Below, piece after piece: positions 2,647-48,683 of a DNA stretch of 64,000 nucleotides; positions within the stretch are counted from its first letter, which is position 1; the number at the start of each line of letters is the position of its first letter. Under the pieces are notes generated by a model, which was not told the DNA's origin, made no database searches, and saw only the letters and a list, made by a program, of their open reading frames with translations. Source of the stretch: a virus. Lineage: Duplodnaviria > Heunggongvirae > Uroviricota > Caudoviricetes. A program made the translations under genes and the position numbers. The DNA lies in the IMG/VR virus record IMGVR_UViG_3300035182_001709. One strand, written 5' to 3'.

Positions 2647-3026
2647 GTGACAAGAAGGTCGGAATCCACGAGGCCGTGTCCCAGCTGTTGGGTGAGAAGT
2701 TGAAGAAGTACATCAAACCTGAGGGTTCAGAGGAGGGCCTCAATCCCTACGTCTGCACTCAGATCTATGGTGACATCTTTGACGCGCTCGTCGAGGTCTT
2801 CACCGCCGCGCAGGTCGAGATCACCAATGAGTCGATGAACTACGTGGCGCAGCAGTACTACGATAGCATCCTCATCAACAATCGCTATGAGCTCGATCCC
2901 AACATCTTCTCGCAGCGTGCCAGGCTGGAGAACATCGAGACCAAGGAGCTGGCATTGTTGCGCATGATGCTCCATGGGACCGACTTTTCGTTGCCGATCA
3001 TTCAGGAGATCAAGCGTCGATCATGA
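2643..3026 (+). CDS. Hypothetical protein
   Basis: 127-aa ORF co-oriented with the GT cluster; overlapping ATGA-type gene junctions. Confidence 0.4.
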   Translation: MSDKKVGIHEAVSQLLGEKLKKYIKPEGSEEGLNPYVCTQIYGDIFDALVEVFTAAQVEITNESMNYVAQQYYDSILINNRYELDPNIFSQRARLENIETKELALLRMMLHGTDFSLPIIQEIKRRS

Positions 3027-3955
3027 AGGTGCACTTCGACGGTGTCAATTTCAACTCTTTGTCCGGCCCCAACACCTTCGCAGGCCGCCTAGCCCGTGGG
3101 TTGTTCGAGAGCGGACACGAGGTGACGCTCTCGGTAGCCGAGGCCGACGTTTCACTGGTCTTCATCGAACGCAGTGGGGCACCCCTTGCCAAGAAAGTCG
3201 TCCAGCGCCTAGACGGCGTCTGGTTCAAACCCGAAGAGTTTCACACCAAGAACTCGAACATCAAGGCGTTGTACGGCGCCGCCGACGCCGTCGTCTTTCA
3301 GTCGGAATTTGATCGCAACTTCGTTGAGTAGTGGTGGGGAGGCGTCACCCGGCACACCGTCATCCGCAACGGGATCGACACGGTGCCTCTCAAGGAGTTG
3401 ACCATTCCGGCGCTGAGCAAATTGGTGCATGATTATGAGCGCATCTACGTCTGCAGCTCGAATTGGCACCCACAGAAGCGCCTCAAGTCAAACGTTGAAC
3501 TCTACATGCACCTCCGCGAGAAGCGGCCCAACAGCGCCCTGATCATTATGGGTAAGGACCCTGACGTGCGTGTGGCAGACCCACACGTCTTCTACACTGG
3601 TCCTGTTGGTCCCGATGTCTACATGCAGGTGTATGCTGCAGCCTCATGGATGCTGCATCTAGCGTGGGCTGACCATTGCCCCAACGTTGTCGTAGAAGCT
3701 CTGTCACAAGGAACTCCCGTGGCATGCGCATCCGTGGGTGGAACCAAGGAACTCATCGGCTCTTATGGCCACGTCCTACAGGAGCAGCCGTACGACTACA
3801 CGCTTGAGGACTACGATAATCCACCCATGATCGATGTGAGGCAGGTCGAAGACCTGCCAGACCGTCGCGATCTCGACTATACCAGCATCGCCGACATCGA
3901 CATCAAGAATGTCACGCGGCGCTACATTGAACTGTTCGAATCGGTACTCGCATGA
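3023..3955 (+). CDS. GT4 glycosyltransferase interrupted by a single in-frame TAG (3329-3331)
   Basis: ORFs 3023-3331 (GT4 N-terminal domain) and 3383-3955 (C-domain, EALSQGTPVACASVGGTKE) are in the same frame. The only intervening stop is TAG; reading through gives ...EFDRNFVE-X-WWGGVTRHTVIRNGIDTVPL..., which restores the conserved NGID interdomain motif. Confidence 0.6.
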
Positions 3956-12027: not shown

Positions 12028-13038
12028 ATGCGCGAGTTTGGCGTCTACATTGGGCGATTTCAGCCCTTTCACAATGCGCACCTAGAGATGGTGCGTTTCG
12101 CTCTTAAGCAGGCCAAGCGCCTCATCATCGTCGTCGGTAGCGACAACCAGGCAAGGAACGTCAAAAACCCCTGGACGACTGCGGAACGAATCAACATGAT
12201 TCGTGGACCGCTCACTGACGAAGAGCGAGCGCGGGTTGATTTCATCCCCGCCAAGGACTACCTCTACAACGACAACCTCTGGATCACTGCGGTACAGCGC
12301 TCAATCGATGAGGTCACTGACGGGTCAAAGGATGTCATCTTGGTCGGTCACAAGAAGGACGCCTCGAGCTTCTACTTGAAGCTGTTCCCACAGTGGGACT
12401 TCGTGGAGACCGGAATCACAATGGATGTCGATGCAACTCATATCCGTGAGTTGATGTTCACGCAGGACAAGATCGGCATTAAGAACCTGGTGCCCGAGGC
12501 TGTTTACGGCCAACTTCTGGCGTTCATGGCAACGTCCGAGTTCCAGCGACTCCACGAGGAGTACCACCACATCGCGGCGTACAAGGCCTCGTGGGACGGT
12601 GCACCCTTCCCTCCGACGTTCAATACCGTCGATGCCATCGTGGTCTGCAGTGGTCACGTCCTCGTCGTCCGCCGCCGTGGTGCTCCGGGCAAGGGTTTGA
12701 TCGCCCTGCCAGGAGGATTCCTGAACGTCAACGAAAAGATCGTCGATGGGATGGTCCGTGAGCTCAAGGAAGAGACAGGCATCAAGGTTCCGCCCCTCGA
12801 GTTGAAGAAGGTCATCGTCGATCAGCGGGTCTTCGATCATCCTGGTCGCTCGCTCCGCGGACGCACCATCACGCATGCCTTCTGTATCAAGCTTCCCGAC
12901 GGGGAGCTACCGCAGGTCAAAGGCATGGACGATGCCGACAAGGCCTGGTGGATGCCTCTGCGAGACGTCTTCTCTCGGGAAGATCAGTTCTTCGAGGATC
13001 ACTTCCACGTCATCAATTACTTCGTCAACCGCTTCTAA
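12028..13038 (+). CDS. nadM: Bifunctional NMN adenylyltransferase / Nudix hydrolase (NadM-Nudix, NatV-like)
   Basis: NadM motif GRFQPFHNAH; Nudix box GGFLNVNEKIVDGMVRELKEETGI. Confidence 0.85.
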   Translation: MREFGVYIGRFQPFHNAHLEMVRFALKQAKRLIIVVGSDNQARNVKNPWTTAERINMIRGPLTDEERARVDFIPAKDYLYNDNLWITAVQRSIDEVTDGSKDVILVGHKKDASSFYLKLFPQWDFVETGITMDVDATHIRELMFTQDKIGIKNLVPEAVYGQLLAFMATSEFQRLHEEYHHIAAYKASWDGAPFPPTFNTVDAIVVCSGHVLVVRRRGAPGKGLIALPGGFLNVNEKIVDGMVRELKEETGIKVPPLELKKVIVDQRVFDHPGRSLRGRTITHAFCIKLPDGELPQVKGMDDADKAWWMPLRDVFSREDQFFEDHFHVINYFVNRF

Positions 13039-13090
13039 ACCGCCACGATCGGACCAGAGAGGTCAGCGTGGCACTCACGGAGAGTGAATC

Positions 13091-14479
13091 ATGTGCAACA
13101 CCGACTACAACATCATACTAGATTGTGACAGTTACAAGGCTTCGCACTGGCTGCAATACCCGCCCAAGACGACCAGCGTCTTCTCGTACATCGAGAGCCG
13201 TGGCGGCCGCGACAGCGAGACAGTCGTCTTCGGCCTGCAGTACTTCCTGAAGCGCTACCTCTCGAGGCCCGTTACCCAGGACAACGTCGATGAGGCCGCC
13301 GCGTTCTACGCAGCTCATGGTGAGCCCTTCAACAAGGAAGGTTGGGATCACATCGTTAAGGACCACGGGGGCAAGTTGCCTCTGCGAATCCGAGCAGTGC
13401 CAGAAGGGACCGTCGTCCCGACGTTGAACGCACTGGTCACGGTCGAAAATACCTGCCCACAATGCTTCTGGACCACCTCGTGGATCGAGACGATGTTGCT
13501 CCGCGTCTGGTACCCGATCACGGTGGCGACCGAGAGCCGACACATCAAAAAGCTCATCATGAGCTTCCTGGAGAAGACCTCGGATGACCCCAGGGGTGAG
13601 ATCAACTTCAAGTTGCACGATTTCGGGGCTCGTGGAGTCTCGAGCCAAGAATCGGCAGCAATCGGTGGCGCCGCGCACCTGGTCAACTTCATGGGCAGCG
13701 ACACTGTCGTTGGCGTGATGACCGCGAATCGTTACTACAAGACGCCAATGGCCGCGTTCTCAATTCCAGCTGCTGAGCACTCGACCATTACCTCGTGGGG
13801 CAAGGAGAACGAGGCGGAGGCCTACCGCAACATGCTACGGAACTTCGCTAAGCCTGGAGCACTGGTCGCGGTGGTCAGCGACTCGTACGACATCTACAAT
13901 GCCTGTGAGCACATCTGGGGCGAGACCCTGCGTCAGGAGGTCAAGGATTCGGGCGCCATCGTGGTGGTACGTCCGGATTCGGGTCACCCGCCAACCGTGG
14001 TGCTCAACTGTCTGCGACTCTTGGAGTCCAAGTTCGGTTCAACTGTCAACTCGAAGGGCTACAAGGTCCTGAACAACGTTCGCGTCATCCAAGGTGACGG
14101 AATCAACCGTGACAGCATCTATGCGATCCTGGACGCGGCGGTGAAGGCCGGCTTCTCGGCGACCAACATCGCCTTCGGCATGGGAGGCGCGTTGTTGCAG
14201 CAACACAACCGCGATACGCAGAAGTTCGCCATGAAGTGTAGTCATATTGTGGCAGACGGCCTTGAGATCGACGTCTTCAAGGAACCAGTGACCGACTCGG
14301 GCAAGCGCTCGAAGAAGGGGCGTCTGGACCTCGAGGTCTTTGAGGGGCGATTCACCACGGGCCGAGTCCCAGTTGGCAAAGAGAAGCTGCCGTACTCAAT
14401 CATGGAGACGGTGTTCCTGGACGGTGAGGTCCTGAAAGAATACACCCTCGATGAGGTGCGAGCCCGCGCAGCCCTGTGA
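13091..14479 (+). CDS. nadV: Nicotinamide phosphoribosyltransferase (NAMPT/NadV)
   Basis: 462 aa, full-length NAMPT architecture; classic phage pairing with NadM-Nudix. Confidence 0.8.
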   Translation: MCNTDYNIILDCDSYKASHWLQYPPKTTSVFSYIESRGGRDSETVVFGLQYFLKRYLSRPVTQDNVDEAAAFYAAHGEPFNKEGWDHIVKDHGGKLPLRIRAVPEGTVVPTLNALVTVENTCPQCFWTTSWIETMLLRVWYPITVATESRHIKKLIMSFLEKTSDDPRGEINFKLHDFGARGVSSQESAAIGGAAHLVNFMGSDTVVGVMTANRYYKTPMAAFSIPAAEHSTITSWGKENEAEAYRNMLRNFAKPGALVAVVSDSYDIYNACEHIWGETLRQEVKDSGAIVVVRPDSGHPPTVVLNCLRLLESKFGSTVNSKGYKVLNNVRVIQGDGINRDSIYAILDAAVKAGFSATNIAFGMGGALLQQHNRDTQKFAMKCSHIVADGLEIDVFKEPVTDSGKRSKKGRLDLEVFEGRFTTGRVPVGKEKLPYSIMETVFLDGEVLKEYTLDEVRARAAL

Positions 14480-14955
14480 GGGTTGACATGGACGACGATC
14501 CGGATTACGATGACATCATGAACGTATTGGACATCAACAACATCCACGGTACCCTTTGGCAGGGTGCCATTCCGCCGGCAGGCAGCCTGCTGCGTGATAA
14601 GGGTTTTGATGTCGTGGTGCTCGCAGCAAGTGATCACCAGGACGCCTCATGGTACCCGGGTCTTCATGTCATCCTCGCACCGGGCGATGACGATGAACGT
14701 CCACATCGACTTATGAACTTCTTGCCGACATGGCAGGCGGCCGCCCGAGAGGTAGCCAGCCACGTCAGGTCAGGCAAGAAGGTCCTAGTCACATGCATGT
14801 CAGGGTACAATCGCAGCGGGATTGTGACCGCGATGGCCCTTCATGAGTTGACAGGTTGGAATGGCCACGTCTGCGTCGAGACGATCAAACGGCGCCGTCA
14901 GTATGCCTTGTCGAACAAGACATTTGTGGCTTGGGTCCACGACAACCTCAAGTAG
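14476..14955 (+). CDS. Dual-specificity (CX5R) protein phosphatase; ends with TAG followed in frame by GTT TAA
   Basis: VLVTCMSGYNRSG active-site loop (C-x5-R-S). Confidence 0.65.
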   Translation: MRVDMDDDPDYDDIMNVLDINNIHGTLWQGAIPPAGSLLRDKGFDVVVLAASDHQDASWYPGLHVILAPGDDDERPHRLMNFLPTWQAAAREVASHVRSGKKVLVTCMSGYNRSGIVTAMALHELTGWNGHVCVETIKRRRQYALSNKTFVAWVHDNLK

Positions 14956-15229
14956 GTTTAAGCCCTCTGTGTCAATCTTTGTACATAAAAGACGAATTTG
15001 ACATCAACATGTGTCCTTTATGTGCAAAGATTACAGAAGTTTTAGGGACCTGTACAAGACGCCACCTGTGTTGTATTTACAATACAAAGGCATCGCCATG
15101 TACGTCATGTATACGCAGAACTATCCACAGATGATTCTCCGCGAGCATTAGCTGCCGCGAGGTCCTCCTTTTCGCGCTCTTACCTCACCCGTGATTGAGT
15201 GCACTTTCAGAAAGAAAAGAGAGGACATC

Positions 15230-15577
15230 ATGAAGAACATCTATTTGCGCGTACTTCGCGCCAAGATCCGCGGTCTGCAGGCCACCGGCGTTTCGATCCA
15301 CAATCGTATCCGCAAGACGAGCGGCAAGCGACGTGATTCGCTGTGGCAGGAAAAGCGAAGGATTGGAACCTTCAACAGGGAGCACCTGATTGCTTACGGT
15401 TTGCTTCGCGGCATCCCGTATGAGAGGATTGAACATTGCTCAAACGTAAATCGACCCAGTCCCGCAAGGATTCACGAGCTGATGCTCGCCCACATGCCTC
15501 CTTGGGAGGCAAAAAAGCTCACGGTGGAGGCGGTGCAGGCCCTTCTCGAGCCCACGGAAAAAAGGCTCGAAAAATGA
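15230..15577 (+). CDS. Hypothetical protein
   Basis: SD AGAGAGGA upstream; ATGA overlap with the next gene. Confidence 0.4.
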   Translation: MKNIYLRVLRAKIRGLQATGVSIHNRIRKTSGKRRDSLWQEKRRIGTFNREHLIAYGLLRGIPYERIEHCSNVNRPSPARIHELMLAHMPPWEAKKLTVEAVQALLEPTEKRLEK

Positions 15578-15933
15578 GTGGTGGAAACCACAAGGTTAAG
15601 ACGGGGGATAAATTGTACCTCGTCACGCGGCGAGACATTGCGCCTGGTTACCAGGCCGTGCAGTCTTGCCATGCCATTCGACAGTTCACGGCTGATCATC
15701 CTGATCGCGATGGTGAGTGGTTTACCAACTCTAACTACCTCGCGTTGCTGTCAGTGGCCGATGAGGTAGAGCTGATGCGTCTTATCACCGCTGCCAAGGA
15801 CCATGGCCTGCGTTGGAGTGCTTTCCGTGAACCTAACGTGGGAGGCGCCATCACGGCGATCGCCATCGAGCCACATCCCAAGACGGCAGAGCTCTGTAAG
15901 AACCTGCCACTGGCGCTCAAGGAACTGTCATGA
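15574..15933 (+). CDS. PTH2-family peptidyl-tRNA hydrolase-like protein
   Basis: KLYLVTRRDIAPGYQAVQSCHA...AITAIAIEP parallels PTH2 (VIVVRKDLxMxKGKxAAQxAHA...AFGP). Confidence 0.55.
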   Translation: MSGGNHKVKTGDKLYLVTRRDIAPGYQAVQSCHAIRQFTADHPDRDGEWFTNSNYLALLSVADEVELMRLITAAKDHGLRWSAFREPNVGGAITAIAIEPHPKTAELCKNLPLALKELS

Positions 15934-16286
15934 GCGACGAACACAAGGCGCCCGACACAATCACCTTCGATGACTTCTTGAAGGTCGATATTCGTGTGGG
16001 CGAAATCACTAAGTCAGAGGCAGTGCCCAAGAGCGACAAACTTGTCAAGCTCGAGGTCTACTTTGGATCCGAGATCGGCTATCGCACCATTATGGCCGGC
16101 ATCGCTAAGAGCTACCACGTGGAGATGTTGGTCGGCACTCGGGTGTTGGCCGTGGTCAACCTTGCGCCTCGCAAGATGATGGGCGTTGAATCACACGGAA
16201 TGCTTCTAGCAGGACATGACCCGGTGACGGGCACAGTTACACTTGCCACGTGTATGGGAGTTCCCTGGGGAGAACGAATCGGTTGA
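15930..16286 (+). CDS. tRNA-binding domain protein (Trbp111/CsaA/EMAP-II/MetRS-C type)
   Basis: FDDFLKVDIRVGEITKSE...KLVKLEVYFG...NLAPRKMMGVESHGMLLA is the canonical tRNA_bind OB-fold. Confidence 0.7.
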   Translation: MSDEHKAPDTITFDDFLKVDIRVGEITKSEAVPKSDKLVKLEVYFGSEIGYRTIMAGIAKSYHVEMLVGTRVLAVVNLAPRKMMGVESHGMLLAGHDPVTGTVTLATCMGVPWGERIG

Positions 16287-16294
16287 GCAAGGGC

Positions 16295-16325
16295 GGGCGG
16301 TGAAATTCACCGCCCGTTTTGCTTG
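16295..16325 (+). terminator. Rho-independent terminator (9-bp GC-rich stem GGGCGGTGA/TCACCGCCC, loop AAT, then GTTTTGCTT)
   Basis: Directly visible hairpin plus U-tract downstream of the tRNA-binding protein gene. Confidence 0.65.
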
Positions 16326-16327
16326 CC

Positions 16328-16936
16328 ATGAATCATGGCAACGGAAATCGCGAAAGTTTCTTCAGGCATTTGGATTCGTTCCTAGCCCCGAGCGTCATCC
16401 TCAACGTGCAGCATGCCTACACGATGGCAAAGTATGGCAACCGCGCGTAGGTTCGAAAGGAATTGGACGACCACGGTGATCCCGTCAGGTACTTCGAGCA
16501 CGTGCGCCAAGTGGCCATCGTCCTGATCGACAAGGCCAAGATCGTCAAGTCAGAGATGATAATCTCTGCGTTGCTCCATGACGTGGCGGAAGACGCTCCC
16601 AACCTGCCGCCCGTGTTGATCGAGCGCTGCTTCGGCACCGATGTCATCGAGATCATCAAGACTTTGAACAAGGTGCCCGAGGAAGGTTATTTTGAGTGCT
16701 TCAACATGTCGACCGACTGGCGTCCGTTCATCAAGGCACGTGATCGGCTCGACAATCTCAGGACGTTGGGGGCAGCCTCTAAGGAGTTCCGTGTCAAGCA
16801 GGTCGCAGAGACCCGCGAGAAGTACTTTCCGTTGTTCGACGTCATGATGACTCTGACGCCCGCACCTATCTCAATCACCCCCAGACGCTGCGTGACCTGG
16901 TCCGAGCCGAGACGGAGAAACAAGTGCTGCTACTGA
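16328..16936 (+). CDS. HD-domain hydrolase (RelA/SpoT/MESH1-like (p)ppGpp hydrolase family) with an in-frame TAG at 16448-16450
   Basis: ATG 16328 opens ...VQHAYTMAKYGNRA-TAG-VRKELDDHGDPVRYFEHVRQVAIVL...ISALLHDVAEDAPN. The conserved HD N-terminal helix (AxxxHxGQxRxxxxPYxxHPxxVAxxL) spans the TAG, so translating across it gives a complete domain. Confidence 0.6.
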
Positions 16937-16955
16937 CCGTACAATTTTGAGGTTT

Positions 16956-17028
16956 GCCTCGGTAGCTTAGCGGGCTAAAGCTGCGGTCTCTAAAACCGCG
17001 ATCGTGGGTTCGACTCCCACTCGGGGCA
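16956..17028 (+). tRNA. Amber suppressor tRNA (anticodon CUA at 16990-16992); amino-acid identity unknown; discriminator A; no encoded CCA
   Basis: Canonical cloverleaf: acceptor GCCTCGG/TCGGGGC, D arm GCTT-AGCGGGCTA-AAGC, anticodon stem GCGGT/ACCGC with loop CUCUAAA (U33, A37), T arm GTGGG-TTCGACT-CCCAC. Confidence 0.8.
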
Positions 17029-17030
17029 CT

Positions 17031-17102
17031 GCTCCTGTAACTCAATGGCAGAGTGACGGATTCTAACACCATGCGTTGAGGGTTCAAGTCCCTTCGGGAG
17101 CG
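17031..17102 (+). tRNA. Second tRNA with probable CUA anticodon (17063-17065) but a weak anticodon stem
   Basis: Acceptor GCTCCTG/CGGGAGC, D arm ACTC-AATGGCA-GAGT, T arm GAGGG-TTCAAGT-CCCTT. Anticodon loop UUCUAAC is flanked by stem ACGGA/ACCAT (3 of 5 pairs), so identity is less certain. Confidence 0.5.
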
Positions 17103-17417
17103 TCATGGAAACTGCCTTTATCTGTGATCACTGCGGCAAGCGTTGTAGCCTCGAGCAAATGCTTGAGCTCCGTGAGTGATCCAGCCTTCTACAACAACTC
17201 TGGTCTAGAGAGGCTCGCTGAATAGTTTCGACTCCGGCGCGATGAGCCAGAAGAACCGCTTCAACGTTATCATCTGTGTCATGAGTATCATCGCTATGGC
17301 GGTACATGGCGCATGGTGCCCTGTGGACCGATGTATCACGAGACAGAGCAGGAGTACTTCATTCACTGGGTTGGTGGCTCGATGAACTTCGCGCAGAAAC
17401 GTTGATACATTGTTGGA

Positions 17418-20503: not shown

Positions 20504-21663
20504 TGAAGACTGTGATTCTTCGGGGTCCAACGTTGACCCAATCAGGATACGGCGTTCACGCTCGCCAGGTTGCACGTTGGTTGCTCGACAAGCCCGGTAT
20601 CGATGTCAAATTTCACTTGCTGCCTTGGGGTGACACGCCTTGGTTGCTCGACAGCAACGCACATGAAGGTCTGGTGGGCGAAGTGATGAAGCGCTCGGTC
20701 GGCCCTGACGCCCATAGTGACGTGTCATTTCAGCTGCAGTTGCCCAATGAGTGGGACCCAAAGGTTGCTGCTTGGAACGTAGGCATGACAGCCGGTGTCG
20801 AGACAGATCGCTGCAACCCATCGTGGATTGAATACTGCAACAGGATGTCACAGATCATCGTTCCAAGTCAGCACGTGTTGGCCAACCTGACAAGCACGGG
20901 CAAGGTGTCGACGCCCATCGCAGTGGTTCCTGAGTCGTTCGTTGATTCGGTGCTGTTGGACGACGACAAGCTGCCTAAGTTGCCCGAGTTCTCAACCAAG
21001 TTCAACTTCTTGGTTTTTGGTCAGTTGACGGGTAACAACCCGTTCAACGATCGCAAGAACACCTTCTTCACCCTGAAATGGCTGTGTGAAGCATTCAAGG
21101 ATGACAAGGACGTGGGCATCGTCATCAAGACCAACGCCGGGCGTAATACAAAGATCGACAGGAACATCATCAAGAATGTCCTGTCGGGCGTCCTGGCTGA
21201 GGCTCGCAAGGGTCCGTATCCCAAGGTTCACCTGCTTCACGGTGACATGGATGACCTTGAGGTAGCAGCGTTGTACCGTCACCCACAGATCAAGGGCCTG
21301 GTCACCTTGACGCGGGGCGAAGGCTATGGATTGCCGATCCTCGAGGCAGCTGCCAGTGGCCTACCAGTCATCGCAACCGGATGGTCAGGGCACCTCGATT
21401 TTATGAAGCTGGGCAAGTACGTTAGCATCTACTATCAACTCGGTGAGGTACACCCGTCCAGGATCGATGGCCAGATCTTCGTGAAGGGCTCCAAGTGGGC
21501 CAATCCTTCCGAGGAGGACTTCAAGAAGCGAATCGTCAAGTTTCGCAACTCTCATACCATCCCGAAGGAGTGGGCCGACGAGCTAGCCACTCGCCTGCGA
21601 GGACACTTCAGTTTCCCGGAGATCGCCAAACAATATGACGAACTCCTGAAAGACGTGCTCTGA
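20504..21663 (+). CDS. GT4 glycosyltransferase
   Basis: LTRGEGYGLPILEAAASGLPVIATGWSGHLDF. Confidence 0.65.
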
Positions 21664-21971
21664 TGATTACGACGATTGTCATACTGTCGCTGCTCTGTCT
21701 GACACTTGCGTTCTTCATCTACGTTAGCGTAAAGAGGAACCTCGAGTACCAAGACAAGATGCAGGAAATCGTCGATCAGACAGAGGTAGCGCTTGACGTG
21801 TTGAACACGTGCTATCAACGAGCGGCCGCACGGGCAGAGCTCGAGGTCATGAGCGACGAACCCGTCGTCCGTGAGCTCGTGCAGGACATCAAAATGTCCC
21901 GTGACGCCATACTGCTTGTTGCAAACTTGATTGTCGAGCCGATTCAGGACGACGAGGAAGGCAACAAATAG
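21663..21971 (+). CDS. Small membrane protein (N-terminal TM helix); ends with TAG abutting the ATG of the next, same-frame gene
   Basis: MITTIVILSLLCLTLAFFIYV hydrophobic segment. Confidence 0.4.
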   Translation: MITTIVILSLLCLTLAFFIYVSVKRNLEYQDKMQEIVDQTEVALDVLNTCYQRAAARAELEVMSDEPVVRELVQDIKMSRDAILLVANLIVEPIQDDEEGNK

Positions 21972-22784
21972 ATGGCCGCCCGCAAAAAGACGACCCAGAA
22001 ATCACCCGCAAAGAAGGCAGCACTCGCCGCAATCGTCCCATCTTCTCCCCCTGAGAAGGAAGAGCCCAAGACGGAGGAACAGAAGAAGGCTGCGAAGCAG
22101 TCGAGGATGTACTTCAATCAAAATACGCAGGCCGCGATCTGCGCCTACCAGAAGGAAACTGACAGGAAGGAACGCGAGAGGCTCTACGTCAATGAAATCA
22201 TGCCAGCGTTTGAGAAGTTGACAGAGAACCTGATCAACATTCACAAGTTCACCAGCCTGCACGACACCTACGATGATTTGAAGAACGACTGCGTCAACTT
22301 CCTCTTTGAGACGATTCACAAGTTCGACGGCACGCGAGGGACCAACGCTTTTTCGTACTTCAACGTGGTCGCCAAGAACTGGTTGATCATCAGGACAAAG
22401 CAGAAGGCACAGCGCGTCAAGCGTTCGGTGTCGCTGGACGATCCCAACTCGCTGAATGCTCATGAGTTCAACATCGTCGAAGAGCACAACATGGTCCCGT
22501 CTGCTGAGATGATCATGGAGAATGAGACCAGCGCAGCTGGCGTCCTGAAGATGTTGTACGAAATCAGGACCCGCGTCAAGACAGAGAATGAGCTGGCGTG
22601 CATCAACTCCATCATCACCATCTTCGAAAACGTTGATGATGTTGACTTGTTGAGCAAGAGTGCCATCCTGCTCTACATGCGTGAACTGTCGGGCCTGAGT
22701 CCTAAGCAGTTGACAACGACGATGCAGATGGTCAAGAAGCACTATCGCAAGTTGAAGGGCGACGCTAAGTTTCGCCTGTTCTGA
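21972..22784 (+). CDS. gp55-like late-transcription sigma factor with a Lys/Pro-rich N-terminal extension
   Basis: KFDGTRGTNAFSYFNVVAKNWLIIRTKQKAQ parallels T4 gp55 region 2 (..[20 protein letters not shown]..). Confidence 0.5.
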   Translation: MAARKKTTQKSPAKKAALAAIVPSSPPEKEEPKTEEQKKAAKQSRMYFNQNTQAAICAYQKETDRKERERLYVNEIMPAFEKLTENLINIHKFTSLHDTYDDLKNDCVNFLFETIHKFDGTRGTNAFSYFNVVAKNWLIIRTKQKAQRVKRSVSLDDPNSLNAHEFNIVEEHNMVPSAEMIMENETSAAGVLKMLYEIRTRVKTENELACINSIITIFENVDDVDLLSKSAILLYMRELSGLSPKQLTTTMQMVKKHYRKLKGDAKFRLF

Positions 22785-43607: not shown

Positions 43608-43681
43608 TGGAGCGGGTCACCGGAATCGAACCGATCTCTCTAGCTTGGAAGGCTAGGGCACAACCACTATACCAGACCCGC
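43608..43681 (-). tRNA. tRNA-Gly (UCC)
   Basis: rc gives GCGGGTC...CUAGC-CUUCCAA-GCUAG...ATCGG-TTCGATT-CCGGT-GACCCGC-T-CCA. Confidence 0.6.
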
Positions 43682-43691
43682 ACTTGAATTT

Positions 43692-43766
43692 TGGAGCAGG
43701 TGATAAAATTCAAACCCACGACCATCTCATTGGCAACGAGATGTTCTACTACTGAACTACACCTGC
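43692..43766 (-). tRNA. tRNA-Gly (GCC), non-canonical T loop (TTTGAAT)
   Basis: Acceptor GCAGGTG/CACCTGC; D arm GTTC-AGTAGTA-GAAC; anticodon loop UUGCCAA. Confidence 0.5.
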
Positions 43767-44187
43767 ACTGTGCTATTGTAACCTGCGTCCCTCAACCTGC
43801 TCGCCTCAAACGTCGGTTGTATGAGTTCTTTGCTGCCGCGCGCTGACCAGGCTTCCACTTCAACATATTCTTCCATCCGGTCAGAGCATCAACCTCATCG
43901 CCGCCCTTCAACGGGATCCTGGTGGGTGGGTCCATGTCCTCATACGGGCTCGCGGGTTCTTCGGGCGAGACTTCACCATCGAGCGGAGGATTCTCTAGAG
44001 GAGGCTCCACGATGTCATCATCCATGTAATCGTAGCCTTCTTCGTCGTAGAGGTCCGAATACTCAGGCTCAGGCTCAATCTGCTGCTTACGGGTCGACTT
44101 ATCCCAAGTCGGATACGATTCTGCCAAGACAACCTCTTTAATGAGGTTCCTCAGTTTGCCAAGGGTAATCTTCATGTCCAGTAACTA

Positions 44188-44268
44188 TGGCGGAAGAGGA
44201 GGAATTCGAACCCTTGGGGCCCTCCCCGCTACCTTTGCGATAACCTCCAATATTTCCGTCACGTTTAG
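44188..44268 (-). tRNA. tRNA-like element, degenerate (family with 3-prime end ...CTCTTCCGCCA)
   Basis: Good T loop (GGGTTCGAATTCC) and CCA end but no canonical D or anticodon arm. Confidence 0.3.
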
Positions 44269-44362
44269 CTGCTTCACGAATACGTTGTCGTCGAACGACA
44301 TCCTTTTCAGGAGAGGAGGCTATGCCACGACAATTAAGATTATTCGTGAGTGCTATCCTAAT

Positions 44363-44590
44363 TTACTCGCGCACTTCGGGAGAAGTTGTCTGCCCGTGAC
44401 TCCAACTTTTCTTTCCTAAGATTCCGCGTGGATGTTCACGACCCTCAAGGGGATTCTTGCCTCGTTTATGTGAAGCATCTCGTTCTTTCTTAGCGGGACA
44501 TGCATTGACACTAGTGTTGCAACACCAGCGTTTTGTGCTTATGAAGAATTTCACTCCTTCGTTGCCACATCCATAATCACATTGAGGCAT
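44363..44590 (-). CDS. Small Cys-rich (zinc-ribbon-like) protein
   Basis: CDYGCGNEG...CCNTSVNAC. Confidence 0.3.
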   Translation of the reverse strand: MPQCDYGCGNEGVKFFISTKRWCCNTSVNACPAKKERDASHKRGKNPLEGREHPRGILGKKSWSHGQTTSPEVRE

Positions 44591-44630
44591 TTAGAATCAT
44601 GCTTTGCATGTAAATGGTGTAAAGCGCCTG

Positions 44631-44717
44631 TTCTAACTTGCGGAAGGTGCGAGAGTCGAACTCGCAATAGGCTCATCACCTATGTCGGTTTTCAAGACCG
44701 ATGGGCCTGCCAATGCC
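44631..44717 (-). tRNA. tRNA-Ser (UGA), type II
   Basis: GGAAGGT-TT-GGGC-ATTGGCAG-GCCC-A-TCGGT-CUUGAAA-ACCGA-[long variable arm]-GCGAG-TTCGACT-CTCGC-ACCTTCC-G. Confidence 0.65.
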
Positions 44718-44740
44718 CAAACCTTCCAAGTCACTTCTTC

Positions 44741-44848
44741 TTCGGCTTCTTGATTTCGTTCACCGTCTCCGGGTGCTTTTTTCGTGAGTGTTCGTGGTAA
44801 CAATCGATGCAGACGATCACTGCACACTTGATGCAGATCCACACTTCT
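44741..44848 (-). CDS. Small zinc-ribbon protein with Lys-rich tail (paralogue of 45031-45282); GTG start
   Basis: rc translation ...VWICIKCAVIVCIDCYHEHSRKKHPETVNEIKKPKK; shares the CxKCxVIVC core with the neighbouring ORF. Confidence 0.3.
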
Positions 44849-44933
44849 GACGTGTCAGAGGCGTGCCAGCGGACGGACGCACTCTCTTTAATTCAACCTT
44901 CGAACTACAGCTTGGACAGGGAATGATCATCCG

Positions 44934-45026
44934 GCGGAAGCGGGGATTTGAACCCATGATCCTTGCAGACCCTTCGGTCTAGCAAACCGGTCGAATAAAC
45001 CACTCTACCAATCCTCCAATATACCA
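44934..45026 (-). tRNA. Degenerate tRNA-Ser(GCU)-like copy (poor acceptor and D pairing)
   Basis: Shares ...CCGGTTTGCTA(G/A)ACCG...AGTGGTTTATTCGACC with the Ser(GCU) gene at 45295-45374 but the acceptor halves do not pair. Confidence 0.35.
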
Positions 45027-45030
45027 CACT

Positions 45031-45282
45031 CTACTTTTTCTTATTTTTCTTGCCACCTTTCGTGGGCCCAGGTTTGAGGCCATAGACTTCTGGATGGGCC
45101 TTCTCGAGGTGGCTTGCATAGCAAGGAACGCTGTTACCATTCCCGAGATCGATGGGATTTCCGCAGACAATGACTGGGCATTTGAGGCACAGCCAAATCT
45201 CGGTCCCGTCATTGCTTAGCCCACGCACGGGTGCCGAGTTGGCAATGACCTCATGACGGCAGTTGGGACAAATCGTCTGCAT
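45031..45282 (-). CDS. Small zinc-ribbon protein with Lys-rich C-terminal tail
   Basis: CPNC...CLKCPVIVCGNP...KGGKKNKKK. Confidence 0.35.
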   Translation of the reverse strand: MQTICPNCRHEVIANSAPVRGLSNDGTEIWLCLKCPVIVCGNPIDLGNGNSVPCYASHLEKAHPEVYGLKPGPTKGGKKNKKK

Positions 45283-45294
45283 GATGGCGGAAGC

Positions 45295-45374
45295 GGGGGG
45301 ATTCGAACCCCCGAGGCCCTTTCAAACCCTCCGGTTTAGCAAACCGGTCGAATAAACCACTCTCGCACGCTTCC
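45295..45374 (-). tRNA. tRNA-Ser (GCU), type II
   Basis: GGAAGCG-TG-CGA-GAGTGGTTTAT-TCG-A-CCGGT-UUGCUAA-ACCGG-[variable arm]-GGGGG-TTCGAAT-CCCCC-CGCTTCC-G-CCA. Confidence 0.6.
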
Positions 45375-45398
45375 AAGTTCGTTCGGGTCGGAGCAGAG

Positions 45399-45471
45399 GG
45401 ATTCGAACCCCCGTGAACCCTATGGGCCTCCTGGGTGTAAACCAGGCATTCTACCGCTGAACTATGCTCCG
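45399..45471 (-). tRNA. tRNA-Val (UAC) with unusually long (17-nt) variable region
   Basis: Anticodon arm CCTGG-UUUACAC-CCAGG; T arm GGGGG-TTCGAAT-CCCTC; acceptor CGGAGCA/TGCTCCG. Confidence 0.45.
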
Positions 45472-45499
45472 ATTGCGGGGGATAGCACCCCCGCTCGCC

Positions 45500-45886
45500 T
45501 CAAATCAACTTCAGGTTACCTGTGATCCTGTCGAGCAGCGCACCCTCGCATGGTCCGAAGGCTGCACAAGTCAATGTCGGAACTCCATTGAACTCTGTCC
45601 TTCCGGCGTCGATGATGGGATGCACCTCGACGTCCTCAATTTCTGCCTTGAAGATGAGGTCCTTCAAGGCATCTTCCGAATCCACACCCACCACGATCTT
45701 GGTGAAGGAACCCGACAACCATGTGGCCTCTGCGGGTGTCAGCTTGATGACGACCTCGTCTCCACGTTGCGCTTCGTTGTTGTCAACGAGAAACTTCATC
45801 GAAGCATGGGCGACCTGGGCGGCCAATTTGCCCTTTTTCATGTTCAGGTCCTTTCGTACGACGATGACCTGCTTCACGTCACTCAT
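45500..45886 (-). CDS. pth2: Peptidyl-tRNA hydrolase, PTH2 family
   Basis: KQVIVVRKDLNMKKGKLAAQVAHAS...TLTCAAFGP (canonical PTH2). Confidence 0.75.
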   Translation of the reverse strand: MSDVKQVIVVRKDLNMKKGKLAAQVAHASMKFLVDNNEAQRGDEVVIKLTPAEATWLSGSFTKIVVGVDSEDALKDLIFKAEIEDVEVHPIIDAGRTEFNGVPTLTCAAFGPCEGALLDRITGNLKLI

Positions 45887-46044
45887 GGTGTCCTCCGGCT
45901 TGTCAAGGATCGGTCTCGTGCCTTTCGGCACGGGCTTCCCCCTCGGCTCTTCGCCGAATCTCGGACGCTTGCGCGTCTTGGGAGTTGATAGGTCTTGCGG
46001 GCGCATAACCGGCCTTGATAAGTATCGGAAGTTCGAGGTTCAGT

Positions 46045-46374
46045 TCACTTGCTGGGGCGCTCCGCCTTTTCTTGTGCGCGACGTTCCTTCGCCTTCTGCT
46101 TCACCTGCTCAGCGGGCGCAGTTCGCTTGCCAATGCCGGTCAACGGCTTGGACTCTGCGAGAGCCACCGCGATCCGGGCGCGCTGCTTCTGGGCACCAAC
46201 ACCCTTGCCAAGCCGGCCGTCGAGGCTGGCGAGCTGTTCCCGAGGCGACAGCTTCTGCCACACCGTGAGGCGTTCCTTCGCCTCTTTTTGACGCAGCTTG
46301 CGCAGATCGGGCCGCGGGCCGCCGCCGGTGAACTTACGGACGTTGTTGAGCTTCTTGGTAGCCTTCAGGTTCAT
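46045..46374 (-). CDS. Hypothetical basic (Lys/Arg-rich) protein
   Basis: 109-aa ORF, TGA stop. Confidence 0.3.
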   Translation of the reverse strand: MNLKATKKLNNVRKFTGGGPRPDLRKLRQKEAKERLTVWQKLSPREQLASLDGRLGKGVGAQKQRARIAVALAESKPLTGIGKRTAPAEQVKQKAKERRAQEKAERPSK

Positions 46375-46392
46375 GTGATTCCGTTTCCTTCT

Positions 46393-46581
46393 TCAGTCAG
46401 GTGACTTTGGATGTGGAGGTGGCGCTGGATAGCGACACGTGGGGTTGACGTAGACATAACCTTCTTCGAGAAGACGAGTGCAAGGATCGCGGCGTCGCAC
46501 CTTGGGAATGTCCCATTCCGTGTAGCAACCAGCGACAGCGAGGGTCGCAATCGCAATCACCGTGACGATTAGCTTCTTCAC
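46393..46581 (-). CDS. Small lipoprotein (lipobox LAVAGC)
   Basis: MKKLIVTVIAIATLAVAGC signal/lipobox. Confidence 0.4.
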   Translation of the reverse strand: MKKLIVTVIAIATLAVAGCYTEWDIPKVRRRDPCTRLLEEGYVYVNPTCRYPAPPPHPKSPD

Positions 46582-46769
46582 ATGGCCCTCATCTCCCGAA
46601 GGAGCTTCGAGTAGTCCATCTGCCGGAACCAGATGCCATTGTGGCTCTCTTTGATGCGATTGTACATGTCCGAATCAACATCGATGATCTTGGGGCTGCC
46701 GCTGGGTCGGTTATACTCATCTAGGACCTCCTTGAGCATCTTGGCCCAATAGTCCTTCTCGAATGCCAC
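46578..46769 (-). CDS. Hypothetical small protein
   Basis: 63-aa ORF overlapping the lipoprotein start. Confidence 0.3.
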   Translation of the reverse strand: MAFEKDYWAKMLKEVLDEYNRPSGSPKIIDVDSDMYNRIKESHNGIWFRQMDYSKLLREMRAM

Positions 46770-46928
46770 GTGGTCTGCCTCGGTCAGGTGAAGCGTGGCC
46801 CCGTCAGGGCGACAGCTCCAACCTCGTTCAAACTCGTTCCATTCTTAGGAGACGACCGGAAATCGCTTTTGCCTTCGCCATGCGTGGCCTCTTGATTCAA
46901 GATACCATACCGACCGCTCGAGTTACAC

Positions 46929-47008
46929 TGGCACCCCTGGCGAGAGTCGAACTCGCATGTGTCCAATTACGATTTCACCTGCTTAGAAGGCAGAGTCGAT
47001 ACAGGGGC
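46929..47008 (-). tRNA. Atypical tRNA-Arg-like gene (anticodon UCU)
   Basis: Acceptor GCCCCTG/CAGGGGT, canonical T arm GCGAG-TTCGACT-CTCGC and anticodon hairpin TCTGC-CUUCUAA-GCAGG. Only ~5 nt lie where the D arm should be, and a ~20-nt D-loop-like segment (AATTGGACACAT) follows the anticodon arm. Confidence 0.4.
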
Positions 47009-47012
47009 ATGA

Positions 47013-47090
47013 TGGCACCCCCGACAGGATTCGAACCTGCATGTGTCCGTTAGCTTTCTCGTGCTTCGAAGGCACGCGGCATACGGGGGC
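47013..47090 (-). tRNA. Atypical tRNA-Arg-like gene (anticodon UCG), same architecture
   Basis: Acceptor GCCCCCG/CGGGGGT; anticodon hairpin CGTGC-CUUCGAA-GCACG; segment ...CTAACGGACACAT before T arm GCAGG-TTCGAAT-CCTGT. Confidence 0.4.
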
Positions 47091-47097
47091 GTGATGG

Positions 47098-47177
47098 TGG
47101 CACCGCTGGAGGGATTCGAACCCACGTGCATCCAGCTACCCTTTCAACGGTTTAGGAAACCGAGGGGATACAGCGGC
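47098..47177 (-). tRNA. Atypical tRNA-Arg-like gene (anticodon CCU), same architecture
   Basis: Acceptor GCCGCTG/CAGCGGT; anticodon hairpin CGGT-UUCCUAA-ACCG; D-loop-like GGGTAGCTGGATGCAC placed 3-prime of the anticodon arm. Confidence 0.4.
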
Positions 47178-47182
47178 ATAGT

Positions 47183-47259
47183 TGGCCTCCCCGGTGGGAT
47201 TTGAACCCACGACCTCGTGCTTCGGAGACACGCGCTCTGATCCGCTGAGCTACGGGGAG
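47183..47259 (-). tRNA. tRNA-Arg (CCG), canonical
   Basis: CTCCCCG-TA-GCTC-AGCGGATCA-GAGC-G-CGTGT-CUCCGAA-GCACG-AGGTC-GTGGG-TTCAAAT-CCCAC-CGGGGAG-G-CCA. Confidence 0.65.
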
Positions 47260-47335
47260 AAATTCTTGCTAACGTGATAGCCTCCTTTGGTGGAAGTCAT
47301 GCGATCTTTCTCGTGTCAAACGTGCTTCACCTGAT

Positions 47336-47410
47336 GCAGGATTCGAACCTGCTGCCCCGGATCACGAGCCCGGTGTGTTAACCCATACACCATCGATGGT
47401 TACTAATTGT
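47336..47410 (-). tRNA. tRNA-Thr (CGU); acceptor pairing imperfect
   Basis: D arm GTGT-ATGGGTTA-ACAC; anticodon arm CCGGG-CUCGUGA-TCCGG; T arm GCAGG-TTCGAAT-CCTGC. Confidence 0.45.
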
Positions 47411-47444
47411 GCGCACGTCACTGTTCAATCAACTTCACCTTCAT

Positions 47445-47514
47445 TCGAGGCAGGAATCGAACCTGCAACCCCCTGAGTACAAGTCAGGTAAGCTACCATT
47501 GCTCCACTCGATGT
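47445..47514 (-). tRNA. tRNA-Thr (UGU)
   Basis: Anticodon arm CCTGA-CUUGUAC-TCAGG; T arm GCAGG-TTCGATT-CCTGC. Confidence 0.45.
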
Positions 47515-47548
47515 CTAACTGGCTGTAGGTTACCGTTGATTGGTACGG

Positions 47549-48642: not shown

Positions 48643-48683
48643 TTTGGCCTCCGCCTCACCCTATCAAAGGGAACGGCAACTGT

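What the first reader, a model, noticed from the sequence alone, without database searches (positions are those of the whole stretch)
16328..16936. HD (RelA/SpoT/MESH1-like) hydrolase whose conserved N-terminal helix is split by an in-frame TAG at 16448-16450
The stretch ...AYTMAKYGNRA | TAG | VRKELDDHGDPVRYFEHVRQVAIVL...ALLHDVAED matches the MESH1/SpoT consensus (AxxxHxxQxRKxxxxPYxxHPxxVAxIL...AALLHDxxED) across the stop. The TAG falls where Q/R residues normally sit. The gene begins right after a rho-independent terminator and ends 20 nt before the CUA tRNA. The position would fit insertion of Gln, but this is only an inference.
Basis: partly seen in the sequence, partly recalled or inferred. 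Interest (0 to 1): 0.8.

Follow-up and report, generated by a model that had tools for sequence, protein, structure and literature searches.

The report
Decaying alarmone-hydrolase gene beside amber-suppressor tRNAs
A jumbo-phage gene for a small (p)ppGpp-type hydrolase really is split by a TAG stop exactly where all its relatives encode glutamine, next to two phage tRNAs that could read TAG. But this copy carries several other defects, so it looks more like a dying gene than deliberate recoding.

Summary
A profile built from 116 homologs aligns to 16328-16936 straight across the TAG at 16448-16450 (299 bits), and 115 of 116 homologs have Gln there (CAG in 6 of 8 relatives). Five or more contigs are identical here, so it is not a random read error.

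This copy has lost three invariant residues (H38N, R61Q, R124C). It breaks 11 of 81 conserved columns, more than any homolog (mean 2.2), while two control genes from the same window are normal. It has a one-codon deletion and a 1-nt deletion that puts the conserved C-terminal helix out of frame. A 48-nt hairpin insertion has replaced the overlapping stop/start seen in relatives.

The position next to the tRNAs is inherited gene order, because nine relatives with intact genes carry two tRNAs at the same place. The genome uses the standard code.

A well-preserved glycosyltransferase (TAG at 3329) and a small decayed ORF (TAG at 17223) also carry in-frame TAGs, so real amber suppression remains plausible.

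Best reading: an eroding accessory gene in a suppressor-carrying phage, confidence 0.6.

The parts
16285..16324 (+). GC-rich hairpin (terminator-like) inside a ~48-nt insertion between the tRNA_bind stop (16284-16286) and the hydrolase ATG
   Evidence: RNA fold of 16284-16330 gives -28.8 kcal/mol, z -5.3. Relatives instead have overlapping or abutting stop and start codons. The simple terminator scan did not call it.
16328..16936 (+). HD_4 / small-alarmone-hydrolase-type ORF read in one frame, with an in-frame TAG. From about 16862 the frame-0 tail is non-homologous.
   Evidence: Translation. Pfam HD_4. Family profile aligns positions 3-178 at 298.8 bits.
16448..16450 (+). In-frame TAG at the position of the conserved Gln of the HxxQxRK motif
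   Evidence: Q in 115 of 116 homologs; the codon is CAG in 6 of 8 relatives and CAA in 2. It aligns to the Q of Mesh1 'HRQQRRK' and Rel 'HRGQLRR'.
16862..16866 (+). Site of an apparent 1-nt deletion (5 nt where relatives have 2 codons). Downstream, the homologous frame is -1.
   Evidence: Three-frame translation, alignment with homologs, and profile positions 177-203 matching the other frame.
16867..16950 (+). Ancestral C-terminal helix (YLNHPQTLRDLVRAETEKQVLLLTVQF*), now out of frame. Its stop, TGA 16948-16950, lies 5 nt before the tRNA.
   Evidence: In relatives the hydrolase stop lies -23 to +10 nt from the first tRNA (in L006 a tRNA_bind gene lies between them).
16956..17028 (+). tRNA with anticodon CUA (amber suppressor type): canonical cloverleaf, 7-nt loop CUCUAAA, 5-bp anticodon stem, A73, no encoded CCA
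   Evidence: ARAGORN. Rfam tRNA 60.4 bits. Anticodon arm identical to the CUA tRNA of Sinorhizobium phage Phosso, 78% identity in the MAFFT alignment.
17031..17102 (+). Second tRNA with CUA in the loop. The anticodon stem has 2 mismatches of 5, so it may be impaired.
   Evidence: Rfam 48.8 bits with two non-standard pairs marked. Fold and stem check.
17105..17405 (+). Remnant of a small Zn-ribbon-like ORF. It starts at ATG 17105, needs a +1 shift at TGA 17177-17179, and has an in-frame TAG at 17223-17225.
   Evidence: tblastn with the 92-aa protein of relative L008 spans the TAG (E 7e-16), while the N-terminal 24 aa lie in another frame. Codon scores are low.
3023..3955 (+). GT4-type glycosyltransferase gene with a single in-frame TAG at 3329-3331 (residue 103), otherwise normally conserved
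   Evidence: 119 homologs are continuous proteins of mostly 301-328 aa. The aligned residue is K in 60, R in 33, H in 15 and Q in 2. The copy violates 3 of 117 conserved columns against a family mean of 2.6. Pfam Glyco_transf_4 stretch 80-120 spans the TAG.
15574..16286 (+). Conserved upstream neighbours: PTH2-type peptidyl-tRNA hydrolase (15574-15933) and a tRNA_bind-domain protein (15930-16286)
   Evidence: Gene calls with Pfam families on the identical contigs L004 and L005. The same cluster is found in nine relatives.

Best explanation
The window comes from an uncultured ~309-kb jumbo phage that uses the standard genetic code. The stretch 16328-16950 is its copy of a small alarmone hydrolase (Mesh1/SpoT-type HD domain). 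In relatives this accessory gene sits in a conserved cluster: PTH2, a tRNA-binding protein, the hydrolase, then two tRNAs.

In this lineage the gene is eroding. A C-to-T change turned the conserved Gln codon CAG into TAG. Three invariant residues were replaced. One codon was deleted next to the catalytic Asp motif. A 1-nt deletion threw the C-terminal helix out of frame. A hairpin insertion replaced the translational coupling to the upstream gene.

The phage also carries at least one well-formed amber-suppressor tRNA, so some ribosomes probably read through the TAG. The resulting protein would still lack invariant residues and its C-terminal helix, so it is most likely inactive.

Shown: the homology across the TAG, the lesions, the inherited gene order, and standard code use.

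Inferred: loss of function, and actual suppression by the tRNAs.
For: - Homology across the TAG: the profile alignment is continuous over positions 3-178 and the TAG column is Q in 115 of 116 homologs.
- Excess change at conserved sites: the copy violates 11 of 81 columns that are >=90% conserved, against a mean of 2.2, sd 2.0 and maximum 7 among 116 homologs. At 100% conservation it violates 3 of 22 columns (H38N, R61Q, R124C).
- Controls from the same window are typical: GT3023 violates 3 of 117 columns and PDDEXK 4 of 93.
- One-codon gap in WRPYVIKACDRLDNL.
- C-terminal 27 profile positions match the -1 frame, which ends 5 nt before the tRNA as in relatives.
- Hairpin insertion, and no Shine-Dalgarno-like sequence before the ATG on inspection.
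- No homolog has a stop at this position.
- Two tRNAs follow the hydrolase (or the tRNA_bind gene next to it) in eight of nine relatives, and one tRNA was found in the ninth (L016). All nine have intact hydrolase genes, so the adjacency is inherited.
- Standard code. Coding density is 85.6% under code 11 and 87.8% with TAG as sense. TAG ends 3 of 34 plus-strand genes, including an ortholog that also ends in TAG in L008. There is no in-frame TAG in the structural block 25.5-39.3 kb.
Against: - Apart from one TAG and one late frameshift, the 203-codon frame is open, and codon usage on both sides of the TAG is still gene-like (scores 11.9 and 24.4; the in-gene mean is 14.5).
- The metal-binding H...HD...D residues are kept.
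- A canonical CUA tRNA lies 19 nt downstream.
- A second gene, the glycosyltransferase, carries an in-frame TAG yet shows normal conservation. That is what functional suppression would predict.
- Both tRNAs at this locus have changed to CUA, which argues for selection for UAG reading.
- The C-terminal tail also deviates in at least one other family member (P0024), so it may be dispensable.
- Fast change at conserved sites could also reflect a change of function.
Confidence: 0.6

Rival explanations
1. One reading: the gene is functional and is expressed by read-through of the TAG by the phage's own amber-suppressor tRNA(s). These insert Gln or a tolerated residue, and read-through may act as a control that ties hydrolase synthesis to tRNA expression.
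For: - The TAG sits exactly at the conserved Gln.
- There is a canonical tRNA-CUA at 16956-17028.
- The frame is otherwise open, with coding-like codon usage.
- The catalytic HD residues are kept.
- A glycosyltransferase with a TAG but normal conservation suggests suppression works in this phage.
- No in-gene TAA or TGA interruption was found in the 64 kb.
Against: - Three invariant residues are lost, and the excess of conserved-site changes is absent from control genes.
- There is a frameshifted C-terminus and a codon deletion.
- The TAG is not conserved in any of 116 homologs.
- The adjacency to the tRNAs is ancestral.
- A hairpin lies upstream and no ribosome-binding site is evident.
- 'Only TAG' is not significant. 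With this codon usage, 54% of single-base nonsense mutations give TAG, so P = 0.29 for 2 of 2 and 0.15 for 3 of 3.
- The tRNA does not look Gln-like: G1-C72, A73, and nearest annotated sense tRNAs are tRNA-Lys.
Confidence: 0.27
2. A shortened 157-aa protein made from the TTG at 16463 is the functional product (this is how public pipelines called it), and the upstream 40 codons are dispensable.
For: - JGI gene calls give this 157-aa product (P0003).
- Pfam HD_4 still hits it, at 36.9 bits.
- An AAGGA lies just before the TTG.
Against: - The missing N-terminal helix holds the invariant H-x-x-Q-x-R-K motif that every homolog keeps.
- The AAGGA is only 1 nt from the TTG.
- Codon usage upstream of the TAG is still coding-like in the same frame.
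- This product would also carry the frameshifted tail.
Confidence: 0.05
3. The TAG and the frameshift are sequencing or assembly errors.
For: No variant with CAG at this site could be retrieved for comparison. All the contigs probably come from one project or phage population.
Against: - Two further JGI contigs from other samples are 100% identical to the window over about 8 kb each.
- The truncated product is recorded on 5-6 contigs, including three of 0.2-1 Mb.
- The neighbouring PDDEXK product is also recorded in Logan assemblies.
- The amino-acid changes at invariant sites cannot be explained by indel-type errors.
Confidence: 0.03
4. The whole phage uses a TAG-reassigned code (code 15-like).
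For: Two CUA tRNAs and three homology-supported in-frame TAGs in 64 kb.
Against: - Treating TAG as sense changes coding density only from 85.6% to 87.8%.
- Conserved genes end in TAG.
- There are no in-frame TAGs in the baseplate and structural block.
- Five other candidate TAG read-throughs lie upstream of the real starts or at gene boundaries.
Confidence: 0.02

Closest known systems
Small alarmone hydrolases / Mesh1 (RelA-SpoT homolog hydrolase domain, Pfam HD_4)
   Same: - The Pfam HD_4 hit is above the cut-off.
- The nearest solved structures are Drosophila Mesh1 (3nqw), human MESH1 (3nr1, 5vxa), Thermus Rel hydrolase domains (6s2t) and bacterial SAHs (6yvc, 6z3n).
- The gene is single-domain and about 205 aa, and it keeps the H...HD...D pattern.
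   Different: This copy has a stop in place of the motif Gln. It lacks the invariant His of HxxQxRK and two invariant Arg residues, and its last helix is out of frame. The substrate of the phage family is untested; it could be (p)ppGpp, (p)ppApp or pyrophosphorylated tRNA 3' ends.
Amber-suppressor tRNA pairs of cultured standard-code jumbo phages (Xanthomonas phage XacN1, Sinorhizobium phage Phosso, Ralstonia phage RsoM2USA)
   Same: XacN1 has two adjacent CUA tRNAs. Phosso's CUA tRNA shares the identical anticodon arm and 78% identity with the window tRNA at 16956. All are large phages that use the standard code.
   Different: For XacN1 the authors found no gene that the suppressors could serve (PMC5852040). 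Here three in-frame TAGs lie at homology-supported positions. The window phage is not closely related to XacN1: its baseplate protein matches other uncultured huge phages.
Stop-codon-recoded phages (TAG to Gln, code 15: crAss-like, Lak and others) and their proposed precursor stage
   Same: There are phage-encoded CUA tRNAs plus in-frame TAGs. Borges et al. propose that once a suppressor is acquired, in-frame stops can accumulate (10.1101/2021.08.26.457843).
   Different: - There is no genome-wide reassignment, and TAG is still used as a terminator.
- The TAGs are not in late or lysis genes but in accessory genes.
- GC content is 55%, not low.
- Two of the three TAG-bearing ORFs also carry frameshifts.
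Ordinary bacterial or phage pseudogenes
   Same: There is an in-frame stop, a frameshift, a codon deletion, loss of invariant residues, and loss of expression signals.
   Different: Decay is at an early stage. The gene is full length, its codon usage is still gene-like, and a matching suppressor tRNA lies next to it.

Membership tests
RelA/SpoT-homolog hydrolase domain (Pfam HD_4; SAH/Mesh1 type) | Significant match to the HD_4 profile | tested here: met
   36.4-36.9 bits against a cut-off of 27.2. The family-specific profile scores 298.8 bits. Mesh1 and Rel are the top solved relatives of homolog P0001.
RelA/SpoT-homolog hydrolase domain (Pfam HD_4; SAH/Mesh1 type) | Metal-binding H...HD...D residues | tested here: met
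   YFEH, LLHDVAED and RDRLDNL are present in the main frame.
RelA/SpoT-homolog hydrolase domain (Pfam HD_4; SAH/Mesh1 type) | N-terminal H-x-x-Q-x-R-K/R motif intact | tested here: not met
   The window reads N-R-A-TAG-V-R-K. The His is H in 116 of 116 homologs and the Gln is Q in 115 of 116.
RelA/SpoT-homolog hydrolase domain (Pfam HD_4; SAH/Mesh1 type) | Pyrophosphohydrolase activity | not testable with these tools
   This needs an enzyme assay.
TAG-reassigned (code 15-type) phage genome | Many genes, especially late genes, carry in-frame TAG, and coding density rises clearly when TAG is read as sense | tested here: not met
   Coding density is 85.6% against 87.8%. Only 3 supported cases were found in 64 kb, none in 25.5-39.3 kb.
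TAG-reassigned (code 15-type) phage genome | TAG not used as a terminator | tested here: not met
   3 of 34 plus-strand genes end in TAG. These include 21663-21971, whose L008 ortholog also ends in TAG.
TAG-reassigned (code 15-type) phage genome | Phage-encoded tRNA with anticodon CUA | tested here: met
   Two were found, at 60.4 and 48.8 bits.
Programmed stop-codon read-through gene | The stop codon is conserved at the same position in homologs | tested here: not met
   0 of 116 homologs have a stop there.
Pseudogene / decaying gene | Disabling lesions beyond a single stop (frameshift, indel) | tested here: met
   A 1-nt deletion at 16862-16866 with the homologous tail in the -1 frame, plus a one-codon gap.
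Pseudogene / decaying gene | Relaxed constraint relative to homologs and to other genes of the same genome | tested here: met
   11 of 81 conserved columns are violated, against a mean of 2.2 and a maximum of 7. Controls violate 3 of 117 and 4 of 93.
Pseudogene / decaying gene | No functional product made | not testable with these tools
   This needs transcript, protein and activity data.
Pyrrolysine system (ARAGORN labels both tRNAs 'tRNA-Pyl') | tRNA-Pyl architecture (short D-loop without G18G19, 3-nt variable loop, atypical T-loop) | tested here: not met
   Both fit the general tRNA model end to end. The D-loops contain GG and the T-loops read GGTTC(G/A)A. The label reflects only the CUA anticodon.
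Pyrrolysine system (ARAGORN labels both tRNAs 'tRNA-Pyl') | pylS / pylBCD genes present | not tested
   The window's ORFs were not all scanned. None of the annotated neighbours is Pyl-related.

The most novel reading that the evidence does not exclude
The PTH2, tRNA_bind, hydrolase and two-tRNA cluster is a conserved 'decoding module' of a family of soil and groundwater jumbo phages. In nine relatives its tRNAs have 8-nt anticodon loops with the core UUCAA. In this lineage both tRNAs have been retargeted to CUA. The in-frame TAGs in the glycosyltransferase, the hydrolase and the small ORF would then be genuine clients. That would make this a high-GC, standard-code jumbo phage caught at the first step of amber-codon reassignment. 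It would also supply the first candidate target genes for the unexplained amber suppressors of jumbo phages.
Probability: 0.2. Interest if true: 0.7.

Novelty: new member of a known kind. Interest (0 to 1): 0.4.

Why it matters
Several jumbo phages that use the standard code carry amber-suppressor tRNAs, and no target genes had been identified for them; the XacN1 authors searched and found none. This window offers concrete candidate sites: TAG at a 115/116-conserved Gln, and TAG at a Lys/Arg position of an otherwise well-kept glycosyltransferase.

The analysis also carries a warning. The most eye-catching case, the hydrolase, bears the marks of a gene being lost. An in-frame stop next to a matching suppressor tRNA is therefore not proof of recoding.

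If suppression is real, the phage would document the proposed early stage of stop-codon reassignment, in which stops become tolerated once a suppressor is present. It would do so outside the low-GC gut phages where that stage was inferred.

Tried and rejected
1. The Pfam HD_4 local alignment starts after the TAG. I considered this as a refutation and rejected it, because the family profile and more than 100 homologs align across the TAG.
2. Global TAG, TGA or TAA reassignment is rejected on coding density and stop usage.
3. Five other TAG-spanning ORFs were rejected:
   - 15149, 25501, 57967 and 18492 lie upstream of the real starts.
   - 21969 is a genuine stop followed by an in-frame ATG.
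4. 'Only TAG interrupts genes' was tested as a statistic. It is not significant, because 54% of possible nonsense mutations give TAG.
5. An extra 1-nt deletion near the start is possible but ambiguous. ATG 16335, GCA ACG GAA A-T CGC matches 'MTENR' of L008 at the DNA level, but an in-frame alignment with two substitutions is also possible. It is not counted as a lesion.
6. The singleton-substitution test against only 8 relatives was inconclusive. The window lineage is long-branched for most genes: HD_4 8.0% against 0.2-7.4%. It was replaced by the 116-119-homolog tests with controls.
7. The metagenome scan for near-identical CAG or TAG variants gave 0 hits, not even the window itself, so it was uninformative.
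8. The IMG/VR scan for the anticodon arm found 51 CUA tRNAs with unrelated bodies, so it said nothing about amino-acid identity.
9. Extending beyond the window gave only about 3 kb more on the left. The right-end look-up failed.
10. The in-frame stop scan in the relatives' loci found only gene boundaries.

Full report
**What the window is.** The 64-kb window (55% GC) is part of an uncultured jumbo phage.
- It has a T4-like baseplate and structural block at 25.5-39.3 kb.
- It has an array of 26 (ARAGORN) to 28 (Rfam) tRNA genes at 43.6-54.2 kb.
- Exact products of its genes are recorded on contigs of up to 309 kb.
- No megablast match was found in the phage collection; by protein, the only relatives there below 60% identity include two uncultured huge phages (LR745208, LR756508).
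- Relatives carrying the same gene cluster come from forest-soil (ZJ_forest), 'Hain_H52' and other environmental assemblies of 120-350 kb.

**Check of the observation.**
- The frame 16328-16936 reads MNHGNGNRESFF...AKYGNRA*VRKELDDHGDPVRYFEH...LLHDVAED..., with TAG at 16448-16450.
- More than 100 homologs of about 205 aa cover 96-100% of the read-through protein. They read KYGHRAQVRKELDDHG at the interrupted site.
- A profile built from 116 of them aligns to the window frame from position 3 to 178 without interruption, at 298.8 bits.
- The column under the TAG is Q in 115 of 116 homologs. The codon is CAG in 6 of 8 relatives, so a single C-to-T change is enough.
- In solved structures the motif corresponds to HRQQRRK of Mesh1 and HRGQLRR of Thermus Rel.
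- The Pfam HD_4 model begins its local alignment only after the TAG. This is a sensitivity limit, not a domain boundary.
- The hairpin upstream is real and strong.
- The two downstream tRNAs both have CUA in the anticodon position.
- Two further JGI contigs from other samples are 100% identical across the locus, so the TAG is a real allele.

**Why I do not read it as purposeful recoding.** There are four reasons.

*1. The TAG is unique to this lineage.* None of the 116 homologs has a stop there.

*2. The gene carries other damage.*
- The invariant His three residues before the TAG is Asn, and two further invariant Arg residues are Gln and Cys (H38N, R61Q, R124C). Near-invariant P17, S114 and C138 are also changed.
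- In total, 11 of 81 columns conserved at >=90% are violated. The mean is 2.2, sd 2.0 and maximum 7 in the 116 homologs.
- Two control genes of the same window are ordinary in the same test with 118-119 homologs each. The glycosyltransferase at 3023 violates 3 of 117 columns and the PDDEXK nuclease at 17418 violates 4 of 93.
- A codon is missing in WRPYVIKACDRLDNL.
- At 16862-16866 five bases stand where relatives have two codons. The conserved C-terminal helix (…YxxxxxxLRDxVRxETExQ…) continues in the -1 frame as YLNHPQTLRDLVRAETEKQVLLLTVQF. It ends at TGA 16948-16950, 5 nt before the tRNA, which is the spacing relatives have. The frame-0 tail, PAPISITPRRCVTWSEPRRRNKCCY, has no counterpart.

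*3. The expression signals have changed.* Relatives start the gene by stop/start overlap with the upstream gene. Here a 48-nt insertion forming a -28.8 kcal/mol hairpin separates them, and I see no ribosome-binding site before the ATG.

*4. Lying next to the tRNAs is not special.* All nine relatives examined have an intact hydrolase. Eight have two tRNAs directly after it or after the adjacent tRNA_bind gene, and one tRNA was found in the ninth (L016).

A rough count fits neutral decay. About nine excess changes at conserved sites imply roughly 5% neutral divergence. Over 615 nt, that predicts about one nonsense mutation and a few indels, which is what is seen (my estimate, an inference).

**Why suppression is still plausible.**
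- The tRNA at 16956-17028 is a clean cloverleaf with the loop CUCUAAA (60.4 bits). Its anticodon arm is identical to that of the CUA tRNA of the cultured Sinorhizobium jumbo phage Phosso.
- Xanthomonas phage XacN1 also has two adjacent CUA tRNAs. Its authors could not find target genes (PMC5852040).
- In the nine relatives, the tRNAs at this locus do not have CUA. All 17 of them have 8-nt anticodon loops with the core UUCAA. Both tRNAs of the window have changed to CUA, which looks selected rather than accidental. The second tRNA (17031-17102) has only 3 of 5 anticodon-stem pairs.
- A codon-usage scan of every TAG, TAA and TGA in all six frames found only two stops that interrupt coding sequence rather than separate genes. 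Both are TAG: 16448 and 3329.
- The TAG at 3329 sits at residue 103 of a GT4 glycosyltransferase, and its 119 homologs are continuous proteins of mostly 301-328 aa. The aligned residue is K in 60, R in 33, H in 15 and Q in 2. This gene shows no excess of conserved-site changes.
- A third in-frame TAG (17223) lies in the small ORF just after the tRNAs. It is homologous to a 92-aa protein of relative L008 across the TAG (E 7e-16, with the TAG opposite K). That ORF also needs a +1 shift at TGA 17177 and has poor codon scores, so it too looks decayed.
- The 'TAG only' pattern is not significant by itself. With this genome's codon usage, 54% of single-base nonsense mutations yield TAG, so P is 0.29 for two of two and 0.15 for three of three.

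**Genetic code.** The phage uses the standard code.
- Coding density is 85.6% under code 11 and 87.8% with TAG as sense.
- Stops of 34 plus-strand genes are TGA 25, TAA 6 and TAG 3.
- Five other apparent TAG read-throughs lie upstream of true starts or at gene boundaries.

**Which amino acid.** Gln is what the hydrolase site requires.
- The well-formed tRNA has G1-C72 and discriminator A73, and its nearest annotated sense tRNAs are tRNA-Lys of Streptomyces phages at 77%.
- By the E. coli identity rules (established knowledge), that looks more Lys-like than Gln-like.
- Lys would restore the glycosyltransferase exactly and would be a substitution at the hydrolase's conserved Gln. This is inference only.

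**Mechanism I commit to.** The hydrolase is an accessory gene, probably part of an anti-defence or translation-maintenance island.
- NMNAT-Nudix and NAMPT lie at 12.0-14.5 kb, followed by a DSPc phosphatase, PTH2 and a tRNA-binding protein.
- Small alarmone hydrolases are known to reverse toxSAS products, including pyrophosphorylated tRNA ends (10.1101/2021.04.30.441581, listed; the function here is inferred).
- In this lineage the gene is no longer maintained. It acquired CAG-to-TAG, indels and active-site changes.
- The resident amber suppressor may let ribosomes pass the TAG, which would soften selection against such mutations. This is the step Borges et al. propose precedes recoding. The product is nevertheless probably inactive.
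- Confidence is about 0.6, against about 0.27 for a functional read-through gene.

**Novelty.** This is a new example of known kinds: a pseudogenising SAH, suppressor tRNAs in a jumbo phage, and tolerated in-frame stops. The glycosyltransferase TAG and the switch of both locus tRNAs from UUCAA 8-nt loops to CUA are the parts that deserve follow-up.

Noticed in passing
L003 6600-6673 and 7136-7212; L006 10998-11148; L008 10622-10785; L010 10621-10781; L013 4622-4780; L014 3421-3573; L015 4626-4783; L016 4629-4701: In all nine relatives, the tRNAs at the position of the window's CUA tRNAs (two in eight relatives, one found in L016) have 8-nt anticodon loops with the core UUCAA (AUUUCAAC, CUUUCAAU, ACUUCAAA/G). 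The stem sequences differ between phages but still pair. These could be UGA readers, UGAA quadruplet readers or Glu-like decoys. TGA is the main stop codon in these phages, so a general opal suppressor seems unlikely.
   Followed up: partly
window 3023-3955 (TAG at 3329-3331): A GT4 glycosyltransferase is interrupted by one in-frame TAG at a Lys/Arg/His position, and its conservation is otherwise normal. It is the best candidate in the window for a gene that really depends on amber suppression. Public pipelines call it as 102-aa and 190-aa fragments.
   Followed up: yes
window 17105-17405: The small Zn-ribbon-like ORF right after the tRNAs is homologous to a 92-aa protein of relative L008. It needs a +1 shift exactly at a TGA (GAG TGA TCC read as GAG-(T)-GAT-CCA) and has an in-frame TAG at 17223. 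In L003 an HNH endonuclease gene sits between the two tRNAs instead.
   Followed up: partly
window 12028-14955: An NMNAT-Nudix fusion (12028-13038) and NAMPT (13091-14479) are followed by a DSPc-type phosphatase. This gene pair resembles the NAD+ reconstitution pathway that phages use against NAD-depleting defences (from memory, not checked in the library). It suggests that the whole 12-18 kb stretch is an anti-defence or auxiliary island.
   Followed up: no
window 43608-54189, minus strand: There is a large tRNA array: 26 ARAGORN calls and 28 Rfam matches. ARAGORN calls a 96-nt 'tRNA' with a four-base anticodon (gttc) at 53678-53773, which Rfam does not report. The tRNA at 44642-44727 scores above threshold for the tRNA-Sec model, but its anticodon is UGA (Ser), so it is probably a long-arm Ser tRNA. 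Rfam also finds weak tRNA-like matches at 50403-50467, 47332-47394 and 51436-51489 that ARAGORN misses.
   Followed up: no
window 21972-22078 vs L004 8207-8212: Contig L004 (JGI 3300036715) lacks about 105 bp that the window has just after 21972. Contig L069, from the same sample, differs from the window downstream of 1046. More than one strain of this phage is therefore present in the samples.
   Followed up: no
window 14953-14961 and 21969-21974: Two conserved genes end in TAG. The DSPc gene has a back-up TAA two codons later. The 102-aa gene is followed at once by an in-frame ATG, so read-through would fuse it to the next 270-aa protein. Both would be affected if the suppressors are active.
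   Followed up: partly
P0024 / L015 4001-4648: The hydrolase of another family member (on a 324-kb contig) also has a deviant, apparently frameshifted C-terminal tail. The last helix of this family may therefore be lost repeatedly, or may be dispensable.
   Followed up: no
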